DNA of 64,000 nucleotides, taken from NCBI RefSeq assembly GCF_009914755.1, contig NC_060931.1, one strand, 5' to 3'. Below are positions 18,778 through 58,690 of the stretch, in pieces. Under the pieces are notes generated by a model. It was not told the DNA's origin, ran no database searches, and was given only the letters and a program-made list of their open reading frames with translations. This DNA is from the human T2T-CHM13v2.0 reference genome, Homo sapiens. A program made the position numbers and the translations under genes. The first letter of the stretch is position 1. The number at the start of each line of letters is the position of its first letter.

Positions 18778-19769
18778 GAAAGGGTGGCCTGCCCCTCCAC
18801 ACCTGTGAGTATTTCTCATCAAGTGGGACAAGAGACTGAGAAAAGAAATAAGACACAGAGACAAAGTATAGAGAAAAAAAAGTAGGCCCAGGGGACTGGT
18901 GTTCAGCATATGGAGGACCTACACCAGCACCAGTCTCTGAGTTTTCTTAGTATTTATTACTATTTTTACTATTTTAGTGAGAGGAATGTGGCAGGAGAGC
19001 AGGGTGATAGTGGAGCGAAGGTCAGCAAGAAAATGTGAGTAAAGGAATCTGTGTCACAAATAAGTTTAAGGGAAGGTACTATGTCTGGATGTGTACATAG
19101 GCCAGATTTGTGCTTTTTTCCACTCAAACATCTCAGTGGAGTAAAGAATAACAAAGCAGCATTGCTGCCAACATGTCTCGCCTCCCACCACAGGGCAGTT
19201 TTTCTCCTATCTCAGAATCGAACAAATGTACAATCGGGTTTTATACCAAGACATTCCCTTCCCAGGGGCAGGCAGGAGACAGAGGCCTTCCTCTTATTTC
19301 AACTGCTAGAGGCCTTCCTCTTTTACTAATCCTCCAGGGCACAGACCCTTCACGGGTGTCAGGCTGGGGGATGGTCAGGTCTTTCCCATCCCATGAGGCC
19401 ATATTTCAGACTATCACATGGGCAGAAACCTTGGACAATACCGGGCTTTCCAGGGCAGAGGTCCCTGCGGCTTTCCGCAGTGCATTGTGCCCCTGGTTTA
19501 TTGAGATGGGAGAATGGCGATGACTCTTACCAAGTATACTGCCTGTAAACATTTTGTTAACAAGGCACATCCTGCACAGCCCTAGATCCCTTAAACCTTG
19601 ATTCCATACAACACATGTTTTTGTGAGCACAAGGTTGGGGCAAAGTTACAGATTAACAGCATATCAGGGCAAAGCAATTGTTCAGGGTACAGGTCAAAAC
19701 GGAGTTTCTTATGTCTTCCTTTTCTACATAGACACAGTAACAGTCTGATCTCTCTTTCTTTTCCCTTCA
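18778..19769 (-). mobile_element. HERV-K(HML-2) 3' LTR, LTR5B-like
   Basis: Minus strand begins TGAAGGGAAAAGAAAGAGAGATCAGACTGTTACTGTGTC after the PPT (aaaagaaaaggggga) and ends ...GTGTGGAGGGGCAGGCCACCCTTTCA. TATAAAA lies near 19240-19246 and AATAAA at 18958-18953. Confidence 0.9.
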
Positions 19770-21897
19770 TATCCCCCTTTTCTTTTTGACAAAACCGCCA
19801 TAGTCATTATGGCCTGTTTTTGTTGGTCGTTGTCTTTTTGGAGCTGTTAGATACACCTGTAAACTAACAACAGACAGAACAGGCATGCAAGGATTAATAC
19901 AAATTTACAATAGTGGAACTTTTGATAGTTTTAACCCAAGTGACGAGGTTAAGATTTGTGAGGCCATCAACAGCTTTTACAATTGTCTTAGTTTTTGGTA
20001 CCAAATTTAAATGGGCTTTTGATGCCTTAAAAATTTGGTTTTTTAATTTTGAAATATTTAAAGTAAGATTATTTTTTCTGTTTTGTAGATGGCGTTTAAC
20101 CATGTCCCATTGATGTTCAGAGTCATTATAGGCTCGGGGTGTAATACAAAAATCTGACGTATTTCAGTCACACTGTAACTGAAAAAGATATTTCAAGCTC
20201 ATGGAGCCTATCTCTCATTTAAATGACAGTTTGTCTAAGATTATTAATTTGGTTTGCCAATTTTGGATCTATTTGGGTCTGAGAATTGCACAATTTTGAG
20301 GAATTCTTTTGCCAATTATTTACATATTTAGCAGTTTGAATAGAAGAGTGTAAAGCAATTCCAGCAGCCGCAGCAGTAGCTGTGACTGCAATAAGACCCA
20401 TAATCACATAATTAAAGTAAAAATGAATCTTTTGGATCTAGTTAGAACTTTTTTTAATACTTTTGTTAAAATACGGACAGATGGGGAAGACTCTCATGGT
20501 CGGTCTATGGACACAGGGATCCACATGCCCTCTCTTGCCCTCACTAGCAGAATATGGTGCTGCCAATTAAAAGTTGAATCAATGCAAGTAAACAATCTAC
20601 AATTTTCACAGGTTATAGTTTGGGAATCTGGTTTAATAACTGTGTTTTTTACAACTAGTATATAAGGGGGTTTTACACAACTTTGTAAAGGAATTGTTAA
20701 ATTGGAATTTAGGTTGATAGTATAATATGGCTTACGACTTTTTGGTTTTATAGCTTGATTTCCAGACCAAATTTTAACGTGGTGCAAAGCCACAGTAAGT
20801 TTTTATAATTTTGGATGTTTAGGACTAGTAACAGGACGAACTAACTTTGGTTGAGGTGATGAAATTCTCTTTTTACCCCATTTTTATGGATAGGGTGATT
20901 TAAACCTTTATAAAACCTGGTCTTGCCTTTTAGTTAAATCACTAATAGAGGCTGGATGAATGGGCCAGATGGATGGGGCCTGTGAACATGAGTGAGTCTG
21001 GCCTGTACAATTATAATATAATTGGCCTCGAGGGGCCCAGTTTATAATAGTTTCCAATTTATTGTTTTGTAATACCACAGCAGTATCAGTCACACATTTT
21101 TTCCAAACTAAGACTTTTGGGCCTTTTGATTTTTTGGGAATTTCTTGGGGCAAGGCTTCCCCTTACGCCTAAATTTTAATGATCTTTGATAAGAAGAGTC
21201 CTGTAAATTATTTATCTGTGGCTCCAGTGACATTTCACTTACCATGTGATAAGTAAATCTACTGGTGGCACTGACAGTAGGTACTTCTACCCACCAAATT
21301 TGGGTTGTAGGCGTTAAGCATCCTGGTGCCTTTTCTAGGCAAATAGGGGGATAATAATACCCAATGGAAATATTTATTATTATTTCTTTTTTTTTTTTTG
21401 ATTGGGCACGGCAACGATCATCTGTGGGGCCTGGTACCCACGCACTATTATTAACATATTCTTTAATAGGATTATTTATCCATGTGACTGCCCAAATTAA
21501 GGACAGGAAAGGCACATAGGCCCAGTAAGTATAATTAGCTGCAGCTGTTTCTGCAGACATGAGGAGACTTACCACCGTTGATACAATTATCAAAGCTGTA
21601 ACCAGTATATTTTCTAGAGTTTGTATTACCCTTGTTTTTTTAGGCTTTTTTTAGCTAACTGTGTCAGCTTCTTTAGTGGACCCCAGGTCGGCAGCTCCGC
21701 TTTTTTGGTGGATGACAGCTTTATCTGTTTTTTTGATATTACCATTTTGTTTACTTGGGGAGTCGATGATGCTTGATTGTGGGTTTTTTGTTTTTGCAGA
21801 GGCGCTTTTTTTGCATCTTCGATGGGTTTATTGTAGAACTTTAAATGTCTAGTGGGTATTCAAACAGGAAGCTGATTTTTTTCTGGTGAAACACAAG
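19770..21897 (-). mobile_element. HERV-K(HML-2) type-2 internal remnant: integrase C-terminus + disrupted, hypermutated env/rec
   Basis: ORF fragments match HML-2 Env: [51 protein letters not shown]. The rec exon region and the donor GGTG|GTAAGT (21572) are present. Multiple stops and frameshifts; gag/pro/most of pol and the 5' LTR are missing. Confidence 0.93.
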
Positions 21898-22479
21898 TAG
21901 TCCCAACTACGGAAGGCAGAGGACAAGGGGGGTGAGGCAGGAGGATCACTTTAGCCTAGGAGTTGGTGGCTGAAGTGAGCTATGATCGCACCACTGCACT
22001 CCAGATTGGGTGACAGAGCCACATCCTATCTCTAAAACTAAAAAATTAAAACATACAAAATCATCTTGTTTGGTCATCTCTTAGAAATGGATGAATTCCT
22101 TTTTGAGATGAAGATTTAATGTTTCCCAGATTTCACCTATTATCTTAGTAAACAAAACGGGGACTTAAAGAGGCAGGAGTTAATACACAGAAATACAGGT
22201 ACAGTGCCTCTGCCCTGAAAGCACTTAACCCAGCTGGAGAAAAAAGACAAATACATGCAAATTTTCACAACAAAAGATCTGAGTGACAGATATAGTGATC
22301 ATCTGCCTCAAAGAAAGACACAGCTCATTGCTGAAAGGGTGGCCGAACAGTGTGGACCCTGAAAGACTACAGAACTTCAGAGGAGATCAAATGACTGCAG
22401 TGACCACCCCTGTGCAGGCGACAACTTCTACATTTCTCTCTCAATTTGACCCTGGAGCTGCAGATCCATCTTTCCAATC

Positions 22480-56720: not shown

Positions 56721-57769
56721 GGAAATGCTCTAGTAAGTAGGGAAAAATTAGTAATGATGGCTTATACAAGAGTAAAATATATTAATAGTTTTTCAGGTTG
56801 CAGATGAAATCCCATCAGTAGGTTGCAAAATTAATTCAGTAGGTCAACTTATTTTTATTTTTATTTTTTTTTTAGACAGAGGCTTGCTCTGCCACTCTGG
56901 CAGGAATGTAGTGGCTGGATCTCAGCTCATTGCAGCCTCCTGGGATCAAGCGGTCCTCCCATCTCAGCCTCGTAAGTAGCTGAGACTACAGGCATGAACC
57001 ACCACACTCAGCTAACTTTTTTATTTTTTGCAGACACAGGGTCTCCCTATGTTGCCCAGGCTGGTCTCTACCACCCAGGCTCAAGTGATCCTCCTGCCTA
57101 CGCTTCCCAAAGTGCTGGCATTACTGGTATGAGCCACACGCTTGGCCCCATTCATTTTAACAAAAAAATAAACAATATGAGAGTGTACGCCATACATTAT
57201 TGTTTCATGAGCCTTTCATTTCAGTTACACAGACATATTATGTTACGTCAATAAAAAAAAAAAACTCAAAAGGAGCCAGGTGAGGTGGCTCACACCTGCA
57301 ATCCCAGCACTTTGGGAGTACAAGGCAGGAGGATCACTTGAGCTCAGTATCACCTTGAGACCAGCCTAGGCTGTAGTGAGACCCTCTGTCTACAAAAACT
57401 TAAAAAAAAAAAAATGAACAGTGAGTGATGGTGTGGGCCTGCAGTCCCAGCTACCGGAGAGGCTGAAGCAGGATTGCTTGAGTCCAGAAGGTCGAGGCTG
57501 CAGTGAACCATGATTACACCACCACACTCCCACTGGTGGACACAGCAAGACTCTGTTTCTTAAGAAAAAACAAAATTAATTAATTAAAAATATAAACATC
57601 TGAAATGCCATAGTACATATAACCATTAAACATGAGGCAAGAGAACGTGAAGGAAACTGTATCAGTCAGTTCACAGAGAACACAAGTTAGGTAATACCTA
57701 CAAGTTAATATCAATCATATAAAACCCACATTCGGAGTAGATGCAAAAACTTCCATTTGCACTAGGCGC

Positions 57770-58690
57770 AACGAACAAGCACGGAAAAGACCACGTGGAG
57801 TTAAACTGTCAGAAAACCTTTTACCCTCGCCTGTACACACCCACACACCCCGTGCTGTTTCTCCGGTCCCAGTCCTGGCTCACATCCTTCCCTTCTCCAC
57901 CCAAAAACTCGCCCCTTCCCTCACAGTGTTGACTGTTCCCATCAAACTCTGAGGGCAGCTCTTCGGAGTGAGGGCTCCCCAGGGCCCGGTGGGGCAAGCA
58001 GAGCTCTACCTGGACCTGATTCGTCTCTCCTCCACCTACTTTCAGGGCGGACAGACTCAGGCCTTTACAGCCTGCTAAGTCCCGGGTCGGATACCAGGCT
58101 GGGCTCCACCCCCGCACTGTGACCCAGAAACGCTGGTAAATGAATGAGAGAAGGAGGGGGCACATTGAAAGGCAGCCGGACACGGAGGTGCTCGGCCCCG
58201 CACCCCAGACACAGGTTGTGGAGGTTCGGAGGGGCTTGAGTCCCGTTCGTCCCTGTCCCTATCCCGGGGCCCTCCCGGACAGGGCCAGCCAGCCCCCTGC
58301 CCTCACTTCCGTACGAGGGTCGCCCAGTCCCCACGGCTCTCGGCTCTCAGAGGTCCAACTGTTAGGCTCCTCGCGTACCAAAAGGGACGCGTCCAGACTA
58401 GAGTCTGGACTTCCATGAGGTCCAGACTCGTCGCCTCTGGCTGCCAGCAGACAAGGAACTTCACACTCTACAGCTCTCCCCACCGTCGCCAACAGCGCCA
58501 AAGTGCCAGCTCCGCACGCCAAGGTGCAAGCCAGGAGCGCCGCGCTTCATGCCGGGAGCTTGGCGGACTCGGAACCTCGCGCCGCAGGTTCTCCTTTCTC
58601 GGGGGTGGGGGTGTTGGGGGGGGTGGGGGCGTGTTCCTGTATCCTTCGCCCAGGCCGACTTCAGACTGCTGAGCGTTTGCGGACAGGATT
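57770..58690. promoter_or_regulatory. CpG-island promoter of the CRCP pseudogene
   Basis: Only non-repeat GC- and CpG-rich tract in the window. It contains the CRCP-like exon 1, an ETS/GABPA-type CACTTCCG (58304-58311) and G-runs at 58601-58629. Confidence 0.8.
58409..58520 (-). pseudogene. CRCP (pseudogene copy): CRCP pseudogene exon 1 (5'UTR + ATGGAAGT); donor site absent
   Basis: Minus strand reads ...gtgtgaagttccttgtctgctggcagccagaggcgacgagtctggacctc ATG GAA GT (ATG at 58416-58414), followed by CCAGAC instead of a GT donor. The 5' boundary is approximate. Confidence 0.82.

What the first reader, a model, noticed from the sequence alone, without database searches (positions are those of the whole stretch)
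18778..58520. Candidate chimeric transcription unit: CRCP-pseudogene promoter and exons spliced into a decapitated HERV-K(HML-2) env/rec cassette that supplies the terminal exon(s)
Seen: the CRCP copy has a CpG-island promoter and an intact exon-4 donor (AA|gtaagt, 39285) but no recognisable exons 5-6 or 3' end. About 17 kb downstream on the same (minus) strand lies a promoter-less HML-2 remnant. Its deletion breakpoint (21897) falls just outside the env splice acceptor (cttgtgtttcaccag|, AG at 21884-21883), sparing it. The rec donor (GGTG|GTAAGT, 21572), the second rec acceptor (tgtctgttgttag|, 19865-19864) and the LTR AATAAA (18958-18953) are also preserved. Established: HML-2 env/rec mRNAs use these sites, and LTRs often donate poly(A) signals to host transcripts. 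Inference: a housekeeping promoter could drive expression of HERV-K env/rec-type RNA without any 5' LTR. The acceptor may be weak because the deletion removed its native branch region.
Basis: partly seen in the sequence, partly recalled or inferred. Interest (0 to 1): 0.8.

Follow-up and report, generated by a model that had tools for sequence, protein, structure and literature searches.

The report
Dead HERV-K remnant inside lncRNA intron
A partial old copy of the CRCP gene still has a working-looking promoter and makes an annotated non-coding RNA whose long intron happens to contain a broken, heavily mutated HERV-K remnant, and nothing found here shows that the remnant supplies the RNA's last exons.

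Summary

- **CRCP copy.** It is an inverted partial duplicate: promoter plus homologs of exons 1-4, about 89% identical to the parent. It ends in intron 4, so exons 5-6 are absent.
- **HERV-K piece.** It is the catalogued HML-2 locus 7q11.21 (LTR5B, type 2). It starts at 21897/8 inside a split Alu and ends at 18777.
- **Splice sites.** A retrotransposed rec mRNA copy at 5q15 places the canonical env/rec acceptor at AG 21850-21849. The same copy confirms the rec donor (21573|21572) and second acceptor (19864|19863).
- **Coding capacity.** The env frame has 32 stops in 684 codons. It carries a strand-specific G-to-A hypermutation, mainly GA-to-AA, so no Env or Rec can be made.
- **Transcripts.** RefSeq lncRNA LOC105375336 starts at the CRCP-like CpG island. 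It splices from 39286 to exons at 38744/38719, 16288 or 6470, and every listed exon bypasses the remnant.
- **Expression.** A GTEx-based table lists 7q11.21 as "Readthrough", testis highest.

Best reading: the remnant is an intronic passenger. Splicing into it remains an untested possibility for a minor isoform. Interest is low.

The parts
57800..58900 (-). CpG-island promoter of the CRCP partial duplicate, which is the start of lncRNA LOC105375336
   Evidence: GC 60.4%, 62 CpG, obs/exp 0.62. GC profile. Homologous to the parent CRCP exon-1 region. The hub lists RefSeq enhancer elements at 58171-58721.
58379..58785 (-). lncRNA exon 1, homolog of CRCP exon 1. The ATG-equivalent is at 58416-58414. 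The parent's donor after ATGGAAGT is absent here, and a copy-specific donor TTTTG|gtacgc at 58379|58378 is used instead.
   Evidence: Alignment to parent; donor. The position of the parent's donor is my inference from reading-frame continuity.
52143..52265 (-). lncRNA exon 2, an exonised antisense Alu (acceptor ttttttgag|ACGG, donor CTACAG|gtatgt). It is not a CRCP exon.
   Evidence: The homologous Alu in the parent intron reads GC at the donor position.
45589..45625 (-). lncRNA exon 3, homolog of CRCP exon 2 (37 nt, frame 1 reads KDVDSALLSNYV)
   Evidence: 91% identical to parent 141754-141853.
42648..42746 (-). Homolog of CRCP exon 3 (99 nt). It is not used by the lncRNA models. The acceptor dinucleotide at 42748-42747 reads GG where the parent has AG.
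   Evidence: 95% identity over 351 nt. 42746 is the upper end of the RefSeq pseudogene LOC100419772.
39286..39380 (-). Homolog of CRCP exon 4, with an in-frame TGA at 39377-39375 and an intact donor AA|gtaagt
28184..28365 (-). Last credible block of homology to the parent (parent about 155285, in CRCP intron 4). This is the approximate end of the duplication.
   Evidence: Further chain members are Alu-level matches of 71-82% and one 131-nt match of 89%.
21898..22060 (-). Upstream half of an antisense Alu, ending ...GTAGTTGGGACTAC at the deletion junction
18777..21897 (-). HML-2 remnant 7q11.21: the last ~47 nt of pol, then env and the 3' LTR. It has no 5' LTR, gag, pro or most of pol.
   Evidence: Pfam HERV-K_env_2 E 3.7e-23 and GP41 E 3.4e-8. 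Locus tables in PMC3228705, PMC5027517 and PMC9578601 supplementary file 1.
21883..21884 (-). It lies 34 nt upstream of the canonical acceptor.
   Evidence: PMC13238051 section 21 reports np9 reads from another locus using an acceptor '35' nt upstream of SA1. Equating the two is my inference.
21849..21850 (-). Canonical env/rec acceptor SA1 AG (cccactag|ACATTT); first exon base 21848
   Evidence: Exon 1/2 junction of the 5q15 retrotransposed rec mRNA copy (L028). Exon 2 would be 276 nt, and PMC3590776 says about 280 bp.
21829..21831 (-). Position of the env/rec initiator codon, which reads ATA here. It overlaps an AATAAA hexamer at 21832-21827.
21572..21573 (-). rec donor SD2 boundary: GGTG|gtaagt
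19864..19865 (-). rec/np9 acceptor SA2 AG (ctgttgttag|TTTACAGG); first exon base 19863
   Evidence: SA2 motif in PMC4351823.
18777..19769 (-). 3' LTR (993 bp). AATAAA at 18958-18953. Poly(A) addition point equivalent at about 18868.
   Evidence: 39 other loci, 87-91% identical..
18560..18776 (-). Downstream half of the same antisense Alu, starting GTATTTTTAGTAGAGA. About 32 Alu bases are missing between the two halves.
   Evidence: by comparison with an intact Alu at about 33.7 kb in the window.
38514..38744 (-). RefSeq alternative exon(s) just downstream of exon 4 (acceptors at 38744 and 38719)
   Evidence: Hub annotation; acceptor sequences.
14864..16288 (-). RefSeq exon downstream of the remnant. 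Its acceptor ttttgtag|AGTTGGGG lies in an antisense Alu.
   Evidence: Hub annotation.
6364..6470 (-). RefSeq 'last' exon. It has a good acceptor (ctgtcccag|) and ends at GAG|gtcaga, a donor-like site.
   Evidence: Hub annotation.

Best explanation
The window holds an old, inverted, partial duplicate of CRCP: the promoter plus homologs of exons 1-4, ending in intron 4. The copy has lost coding function but kept its CpG-island promoter. That promoter drives the RefSeq-predicted lncRNA LOC105375336.

The lncRNA is assembled from surviving CRCP exons (1, 2 and 4), an exonised Alu, and downstream non-CRCP exons at 38.7 kb, 16.3 kb and 6.5 kb. The 5'-deleted HML-2 provirus 7q11.21 lies in the sense orientation inside the last long intron.

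The remnant is transcribed passively as pre-lncRNA or read-through RNA. This would account for the 'Readthrough' expression recorded for this locus in GTEx data. In the annotated isoforms it is removed by splicing, and its own acceptors, rec donor and LTR poly(A) signal are ignored. It cannot encode Env or Rec, because the env region carries an APOBEC3-like GA-to-AA hypermutation with many stops.

Shown: the anatomy, the splice-site identities, the hypermutation and the duplication limits. Taken from annotation or print: the lncRNA models and the read-through expression. Inferred: that the read-through RNA starts at the CRCP-like promoter.
For: - **Duplication limits.** Inverted collinear chain from 28184-59314, 22,181 aligned columns, 88.8% identity. 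Parent exon 5 lies outside the block and has no significant match in the window.
- **Pseudogene lesions.** TGA in exon 4, GG at the exon-3 acceptor, and exon-1 donor absent.
- **CpG island**.
- **lncRNA exon borders.** All borders I read carry canonical splice signals, and none of the listed exons lies within 18777-21897 (hub annotation).
- **Transcription past the remnant.** Exons at 16288 and 6470 lie downstream of it on the same strand. Those models therefore require transcription through it and past its poly(A) signal.
- **Published expression.** PMC9578601 supplementary file 1, row 19 lists 7q11.21 as LTR5B, type 2, no ORFs, no full 5' LTR, expression mode 'Readthrough', highest in testis, expressed in 4 tissues, host gene 'None'. 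The same paper describes the comparable 5'-deleted 6q25.1 locus as read-through (passages).
- **Acceptor quality.** The used acceptors at 16288 and 6470 have 15/18. The 22,997-nt intron holds 387 AGs at 12/18 or better and 115 at 14/18 or better.
- **No coding capacity.** 32 stops in 684 env codons.
Against: - The lncRNA models are predicted ones. I saw no reads, CAGE or 3'-end data.
- The link between the GTEx 'Readthrough' signal and the CRCP-like promoter is inference. The authors list the locus as intergenic with no host gene.
- The remnant keeps every canonical HML-2 processing signal: SA1, SD2 with a consensus gtaagt, SA2 and AATAAA.
- Two annotated alternative acceptors are no more pyrimidine-rich than the HML-2 ones: 38744 at 14/18 and 38719 at 12/18.
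- Long-read work at other loci shows upstream exons spliced into HML-2 SA2 and ending in the 3' LTR (PMC13238051 section 21).
- The pyrimidine count is a crude measure. No trained splice-site model was available.
Confidence: 0.62

Rival explanations
1. A real isoform splices from the pseudogene exon-4 donor (39286) into the HML-2 acceptor SA1 (21848), the upstream alternative AG (21882) or SA2 (19863). It is polyadenylated in the 3' LTR, so the remnant supplies the terminal exon(s) of a CRCP-pseudogene-driven RNA, for example in testis.
For: - Same strand and a single upstream promoter (hub annotation).
- All viral signals are intact at the positions fixed by the 5q15 rec retrocopy.
- SD2 is one of only 5 GTAAGT hexamers in the 23-kb intron.
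- SA2 (14/18 pyrimidines) is as good as the annotated alternative acceptor at 38744.
- Equivalent chimeric reads are reported at 4p16.1a and 1q22 (PMC13238051 section 21).
Against: - No exon listed by the hub for the 5 RefSeq models lies in the remnant.
- The GTEx classification is 'Readthrough', not spliced.
- Models with exons at 16288 and 6470 show the LTR poly(A) site is passed.
- The acceptors are weak by pyrimidine content and have hundreds of competitors.
Confidence: 0.18
2. The RNA over the remnant does not come from the CRCP-like promoter. It comes from another, unannotated start between the remnant and exon 4 (for instance a repeat-derived promoter), or from pervasive intergenic transcription in testis. 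Under this reading the two features are merely neighbours.
For: - PMC9578601 lists the locus as intergenic with no host gene. The main text says many read-through proviruses may be driven 'from an unannotated feature' (passage).
- Testis is known for promiscuous transcription (general knowledge, no call).
- 17.4 kb separate exon 4 from the remnant.
Against: RefSeq models join the CRCP-like exons to exons on both sides of the remnant on the same strand (hub annotation). A single transcription unit across it is therefore the simplest account.
Confidence: 0.15
3. The remnant is essentially silent. The reported expression is multi-mapping spill-over from other HML-2 loci.
For: It is reported expressed in only 4 tissues. 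HML-2 is a multi-copy family.
Against: This copy is at most 88% identical to any other env region and at most 91% to any other LTR in the same genome. Reads should therefore map uniquely.
Confidence: 0.05

Closest known systems
Read-through-transcribed, 5'-LTR-less HML-2 proviruses, e.g. 6q25.1 (Burn et al. 2022, PMC9578601)
   Same: An env plus 3' LTR remnant of about 3 kb, lacking the 5' LTR and gag-pro-pol, transcribed from upstream host sequence. 7q11.21 itself is listed as 'Readthrough' in that paper's supplementary table.
   Different: Here a specific upstream unit can be named: the CRCP-duplicate promoter and lncRNA LOC105375336. The paper lists no host gene. The link is inferred, not shown.
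Host or lncRNA transcripts that use HML-2 splice acceptors and LTR poly(A) sites (4p16.1a and 1q22; PMC13238051, section 21)
   Different: At those loci the junctions were seen in long reads. Here no junction evidence exists, and the annotated exons bypass the remnant.
APOBEC3-hypermutated endogenous retroviruses
   Same: A strand-specific G-to-A excess confined to the proviral sense strand, with a dinucleotide preference. It is much weaker in the LTR than in env.
   Different: The preferred context here is GA (51-56% of sites), not GG (18-22%). This is the pattern associated with APOBEC3F-like rather than APOBEC3G enzymes (recalled). From recall, the two classic hypermutated HML-2 proviruses carry the GG type. 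I found no statement about this locus. The review PMC9706992 (passage) only says A3F inhibits HERV-K.
Unprocessed (duplicated) partial pseudogenes that keep a promoter and give rise to lncRNAs with exonised Alus
   Same: An intron-containing partial copy with disabled splice sites and a stop codon, new Alu-derived exons, and a retained CpG island.
   Different: Nothing unusual. It is a typical example.

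Membership tests
HERV-K(HML-2) provirus, type 2 | env homologous to HML-2 env | tested here: met
   Pfam HERV-K_env_2 E 3.7e-23 and GP41 E 3.4e-8, on the frame read with X at stops. 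79-88% DNA identity to 39 other genomic copies.
HERV-K(HML-2) provirus, type 2 | HML-2 LTR with a complete 3' end | tested here: met
   39 other loci match 87-91% over nearly the whole LTR. The matches end at 18776-18786, most at 18776-18780.
HERV-K(HML-2) provirus, type 2 | Presence of the 292-bp segment carrying the rec donor SD2 | tested here: met
   SD2 GGTG|gtaagt at 21573|21572 coincides with the exon 2/3 junction of the 5q15 rec retrocopy. Listed as type 2 in PMC9578601 supplementary file 1.
HERV-K(HML-2) provirus, type 2 | LTR5B subgroup (diagnostic indels) | not tested
   Taken from tables in PMC5027517 and PMC9578601. I did not check the diagnostic positions.
Host-promoter / HERV chimeric spliced transcript | Upstream host promoter on the same strand, with transcription across the element | tested here: inconclusive
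   Supported only by the hub's RefSeq predicted models and by the 'Readthrough' label. No reads were seen.
Host-promoter / HERV chimeric spliced transcript | Intact viral acceptor, donor and poly(A) signals | tested here: met
   SA1, SD2, SA2 and AATAAA are present at positions fixed by the retrocopy.
Host-promoter / HERV chimeric spliced transcript | An annotated or observed exon inside the element | tested here: not met
   None of the exons the hub lists for the 5 RefSeq transcripts overlaps 18777-21897.
Host-promoter / HERV chimeric spliced transcript | Junction-spanning reads | not testable with these tools
APOBEC3-hypermutated provirus | Sense-strand G-to-A excess over A-to-G and over C/T transitions | tested here: met
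   Against each of 11 copies: G>A 93-108, A>G 11-42, C>T 19-36, T>C 18-36. Fisher p 3.6e-6 for L005 and 1.3e-3 for L009, the least favourable copy.
APOBEC3-hypermutated provirus | Dinucleotide context preference | tested here: met
   GA 51-56%, GG 18-22%, GC 9-18%, GT 4-13% of sites changed, in 8 of the 11 copies analysed. GA versus non-GA odds ratio 6.4-7.7, p below 1e-13, in 3 copies.
APOBEC3-hypermutated provirus | Lower editing just 3' of the polypurine tract (LTR) than in env | tested here: inconclusive
   LTR GA sites changed 11/62, versus 17/30 in env exon 2, but against one divergent comparator only (L028). More LTR copies could not be fetched.
Unprocessed partial pseudogene of CRCP | Collinear homology including introns and promoter | tested here: met
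   88.8% over 22,181 aligned columns.
Unprocessed partial pseudogene of CRCP | Disabling lesions or truncation | tested here: met
   Stop in exon 4, exon-3 acceptor GG, exon-1 donor absent. Exon 5 absent; the parts of the last-exon region that match nothing in the window are parent 167545-167843 and 168484-168700.

The most novel reading that the evidence does not exclude
In testis or another permissive tissue, a share of LOC105375336 transcripts splice from 39286 into the remnant. They would enter at SA1 (21848), the alternative AG 34 nt upstream, or SA2 (19863), and end at the LTR poly(A) site near 18868.

That would give a CRCP-pseudogene/HML-2 chimeric lncRNA. Its terminal exons would be an APOBEC3F-type hypermutated env whose G-to-A changes reshaped its RNA-processing signals, for example the extra AATAAA at 21832-21827.

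It would show a housekeeping-type promoter driving rec-like spliced RNA from an LTR5B provirus without any 5' LTR.
Probability: 0.18. Interest if true: 0.35.

Novelty: already known. Interest (0 to 1): 0.22.

Why it matters
**Practical value.**
- The work assigns a likely driver, the CRCP-duplicate promoter and lncRNA LOC105375336, to the "read-through" RNA reported for HML-2 7q11.21. Expression surveys treat that locus as intergenic.
- RNA counted for this locus in brain or GTEx studies (PMC10618496, PMC9578601) cannot yield Env or Rec. It most likely reflects host lncRNA transcription, not retroviral activity.
- Anyone testing the chimeric-transcript idea gets corrected coordinates: acceptor at 21848 rather than 21882, and 3' end near 18868 rather than 18.93 kb.

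**Side result.** The GA-to-AA hypermutation is a small addition to the record of ancient APOBEC3 activity against LTR5B-era HML-2.

None of this changes current understanding.

Tried and rejected
**Literature searches**
- 'LOC105375336', 'HML2_7q11.21', 'LOC100419772', and 'HERV-K' + 'splice acceptor' + 'nt 6434' each returned 0 papers.
- '7q11.21' + 'HML-2' gave 14 papers, 13 listed. I opened five of the listed ones. Two concern this locus's coordinates or subgroup: PMC3228705 and PMC5027517. One concerns its expression in brain: PMC10618496. PMC8117144 and PMC13648390 refer instead to ERV3-1, which shares the band. The others were not opened.
- No searched text mentions APOBEC for this locus. 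PMC3228705 has 0 occurrences of 'hypermutat' or 'APOBEC'.

**Locating the rec retrocopies**
- Genome search with the exon-2 query did not list them among the 40 scored of 106 candidates.
- I then fetched 200 kb of chromosome 5 around a position extrapolated from other loci and found the 5q15 copy.
LTR comparators could not be cut out afterwards, so the env-versus-LTR gradient rests on one comparator.

**Other limits**
- No trained splice-site scorer was available, so only pyrimidine counts were used.

**Unresolved points**
[quoted passage not shown] In this assembly no second copy exists: the best other env match is 88% and the best other LTR match is 91%. I could not resolve what the footnote refers to.
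- I considered gene conversion between the CRCP copies, because block identities range from 84% to 95%. I did not pursue it, since BLAST identities count gaps and repeats.

Full report
**What the window is.** The hub gives the window as T2T-CHM13 chr7:67208001-67272000. The assembly could be searched. The finding links two things on the minus strand: a CRCP-like promoter and exons at 39-59 kb, and a HERV-K(HML-2) remnant at 18.8-21.9 kb.

**The CRCP copy.**
- BLAST of the window against 50 kb of the parent CRCP region (fetched) gives an inverted collinear chain. It runs from window 28184 to at least 62562, matching parent window-coordinates 155285 down to 124321. Within 28184-59314 there are 22,181 aligned columns at 88.8% identity. 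Chain members below 28184 are mostly repeat-level matches of 71-82%, and I do not count them.
- Parent exon 5 reads AEKLQLLNHRPVTAVEIQL between cacag| and |gtgagt. It lies at 159498-159590, beyond the duplicated block. It has no blastn match in the window and only a non-significant tblastn match.
- The island at 57800-58900 has 60.4% G+C and CpG obs/exp 0.62.

**Exon-by-exon comparison**.
- lncRNA exon 1 (58785-58379) is the CRCP exon-1 homolog. The parent's donor directly after ATGGAAGT is absent in the copy, and a new donor 37 nt further on is used.
- lncRNA exon 2 (52265-52143) is an exonised antisense Alu. Its donor reads GT here and GC in the parent.
- lncRNA exon 3 (45625-45589) is CRCP exon 2.
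- The CRCP exon-3 homolog (42746-42648) has GG where the parent has the acceptor AG. It is absent from the models.
- The 95-nt exon 39380-39286 is CRCP exon 4.

**The HML-2 remnant.**
- It is the catalogued locus 7q11.21. PMC3228705 gives hg19 chr7:65469689-65472384, minus strand (table passage). PMC5027517 lists it as LTR5B (table passage).
- PMC9578601 supplementary file 1, row 19 lists it as type 2, no ORFs, no full 5' LTR, 'Readthrough', intergenic, testis highest, expressed in 4 tissues.
- Homology to other genomic HML-2 copies begins at 21897. One base may be shared with the Alu. The LTR spans 19769-18777.
- The two flanks are halves of one antisense Alu with about 32 bases missing between them. 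This fits integration into the Alu followed by one deletion. That deletion removed the 5' LTR, gag, pro, nearly all of pol and a few tens of Alu bases. The order of events is my inference.
- The published interval is 2,696 bp, whereas homology here covers about 3,121 bp. I could not determine which part the published interval omits.

**Which AG is the env acceptor?**
- PMC4351823 and PMC3590776 describe two L1-retrotransposed rec mRNA copies, at 2q32.1 and 5q15. Their internal boundaries are the rec splice junctions (passages).
- I located the 5q15 copy in this assembly at L028, C5:93940763-93942286. It is flanked by the published target-site duplication and a poly(A) tail.
- In it, exon 1 is joined to a sequence beginning at the equivalent of window 21848, and exon 2 ends at the equivalent of 21573. 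Exon 3 then follows; counting back from the start of the BLAST match at 19859, it begins at 19863.
- The canonical env/rec acceptor here is therefore cccactag| with AG at 21850-21849, giving a 276-nt exon 2. PMC3590776 says about 280 bp. My own recollection that this acceptor lies 17 nt before the env start agrees, but that is recall, not a call.
It may correspond to the alternative acceptor '35 nucleotides upstream' of SA1 reported for np9 reads at 5q33.3 (PMC13238051 section 21). That equation is mine.
- The retrocopy's poly(A) tail begins at the equivalent of about 18868, some 85 nt past the AATAAA at 18958-18953. That moves the expected 3' end.

**Coding state of the remnant.**
- The env frame contains 32 stops in 684 codons.
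- The initiator position reads ATA.
- The 86 Rec exon-2 codons contain 7 stops.
- Read with X at the stops, the frame still matches Pfam HERV-K_env_2 (E 3.7e-23) and GP41 (E 3.4e-8).

**Hypermutation.**
- Pairwise comparison with 11 other copies shows a one-sided spectrum. There are 93-108 positions with G in the other copy and A here, against 11-42 the other way. C>T is 19-36 and T>C is 18-36. Fisher p is 3.6e-6 for L005 and 1.3e-3 for L009, the least favourable copy.
- By the following base, in 8 of the 11 copies: 51-56% of GA sites are changed, 18-22% of GG, 9-18% of GC and 4-13% of GT. The reverse direction shows 2-18%.
- GA versus non-GA odds ratios are 6.4-7.7 with p below 1e-13, in 3 copies.
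- In the LTR only 11 of 62 GA sites differ, against 17 of 30 in env exon 2. That rests on the single, divergent comparator L028.
- This is the signature of minus-strand cytidine deamination during reverse transcription, with a TC-type (APOBEC3F-like) rather than CC-type (APOBEC3G) preference. The enzyme assignment is from general knowledge, not tested. The lower level in the LTR is in the direction expected for the region just 3' of the polypurine tract.
- One by-product is an extra AATAAA at 21832-21827.

**Is the remnant part of the transcription unit?**
- The hub's RefSeq table gives lncRNA LOC105375336 (6364..58785, minus strand, 5 predicted transcripts). Its exons are at 58379-58785/58559, 52143-52265, 45589-45625, 39286-39380, then 38514-38719/38744, 14864-16288 or 6364-6470.
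- Every splice border of the listed internal exons that I read is canonical; the ends at 38514 and 14864 carry no donor. The 16288 acceptor is an antisense-Alu acceptor. The 6470-6364 exon ends at a donor-like GAG|gtcaga, so that model is probably incomplete at its 3' end.
- No listed exon lies in 18777-21897.
- Models using 16288 or 6470 require transcription through the remnant and past its poly(A) signal. The remnant is then intronic and in the sense orientation. This fits the 'Readthrough' label from GTEx read inspection and the description of the similar 6q25.1 remnant.
- The authors list no host gene. Connecting their signal to the CRCP-like promoter is my inference.
- By pyrimidine count at -20..-3, the HML-2 acceptors score 12/18, 12/18 and 14/18. 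The acceptors at 16288 and 6470 score 15/18, and the conserved CRCP exons score 15-16/18. The two annotated alternative acceptors at 38.7 kb score 12-14/18.
- The 22,997-nt intron contains 1,500 AGs, of which 387 reach 12/18 and 115 reach 14/18. By this crude measure the viral acceptors are unexceptional competitors. SD2 is one of only 5 GTAAGT hexamers there.

**Comparison with what is known.** Use of HML-2 acceptors and LTR poly(A) sites by transcripts that start upstream of a provirus has been documented with long reads at other loci (PMC13238051 section 21). Read-through transcription of 5'-deleted HML-2 remnants is also described (PMC9578601). The locus, its lack of ORFs and its read-through expression are in print, and the lncRNA is annotated. 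Not found in the searched literature: the link to the CRCP duplicate, and any note of GA-type hypermutation at this locus.

**Verdict.** The most likely reading is an intronic passenger (0.62). A minor chimeric isoform is possible (0.18). Interest is low.

Noticed in passing
window 19780-21897 (minus strand) versus 18777-19769: The env part of the remnant is G-to-A hypermutated on the sense strand with a GA-to-AA preference. 51-56% of GA sites are changed, against 4-22% in other contexts. Composition is A 36%, G 16%. The LTR is far less affected (A 26.5%, G 22.7%; 11 of 62 GA sites against one comparator).
   Followed up: partly
window 52143-52265: lncRNA exon 2 is an exonised antisense Alu. 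Its donor reads CAG|gtatgt here, while the homologous Alu in the parent CRCP intron reads GC at that position. The exon is therefore specific to the duplicate.
   Followed up: partly
window 42648-42748 and 58379-58416: The CRCP exon-3 homolog has GG in place of the parent's acceptor AG, and the lncRNA models skip it. The parent's exon-1 donor is absent in the copy, and a new donor 37 nt downstream is used.
   Followed up: yes
window 6364-6470: The 'last' exon of the listed RefSeq transcript ends at GAG|gtcaga inside a sense Alu, a donor-like site. The model is probably 3'-incomplete, and the unit may continue towards GUSB, which lies on the same strand beyond the window start.
   Followed up: no
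L028 (C5:93940763-93942286) versus window ~18868: The 5q15 retrotransposed rec mRNA copy carries its poly(A) tail about 85 nt downstream of the LTR AATAAA equivalent. It is flanked by the published TTAAAAATGT target-site duplication.
   Followed up: yes
window 18777-21897: Published coordinates for 7q11.21 span 2,696 bp (hg19 and hg38), but homology to other HML-2 copies in this assembly spans about 3,121 bp. PMC3228705 also footnotes the locus as the product of a duplication, yet no second copy above 88% (env) or 91% (LTR) identity exists in this assembly.
   Followed up: partly
window 28184-59314 versus parent CRCP: Identity between the duplicate and the parent varies by block from about 84% to 95%. 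Examples are 95% around the exon-3 homolog, 92.7% over 46348-49109 and 84.5% over the promoter block. Gene conversion or alignment gaps could explain it.
   Followed up: no
window 21827-21832: The hexamer AATAAA overlaps the position of the env/rec initiator codon in this copy. It is one of 4 AATAAA and 5 ATTAAA motifs in the env body of the remnant (the LTR holds 1 more AATAAA).
   Followed up: no
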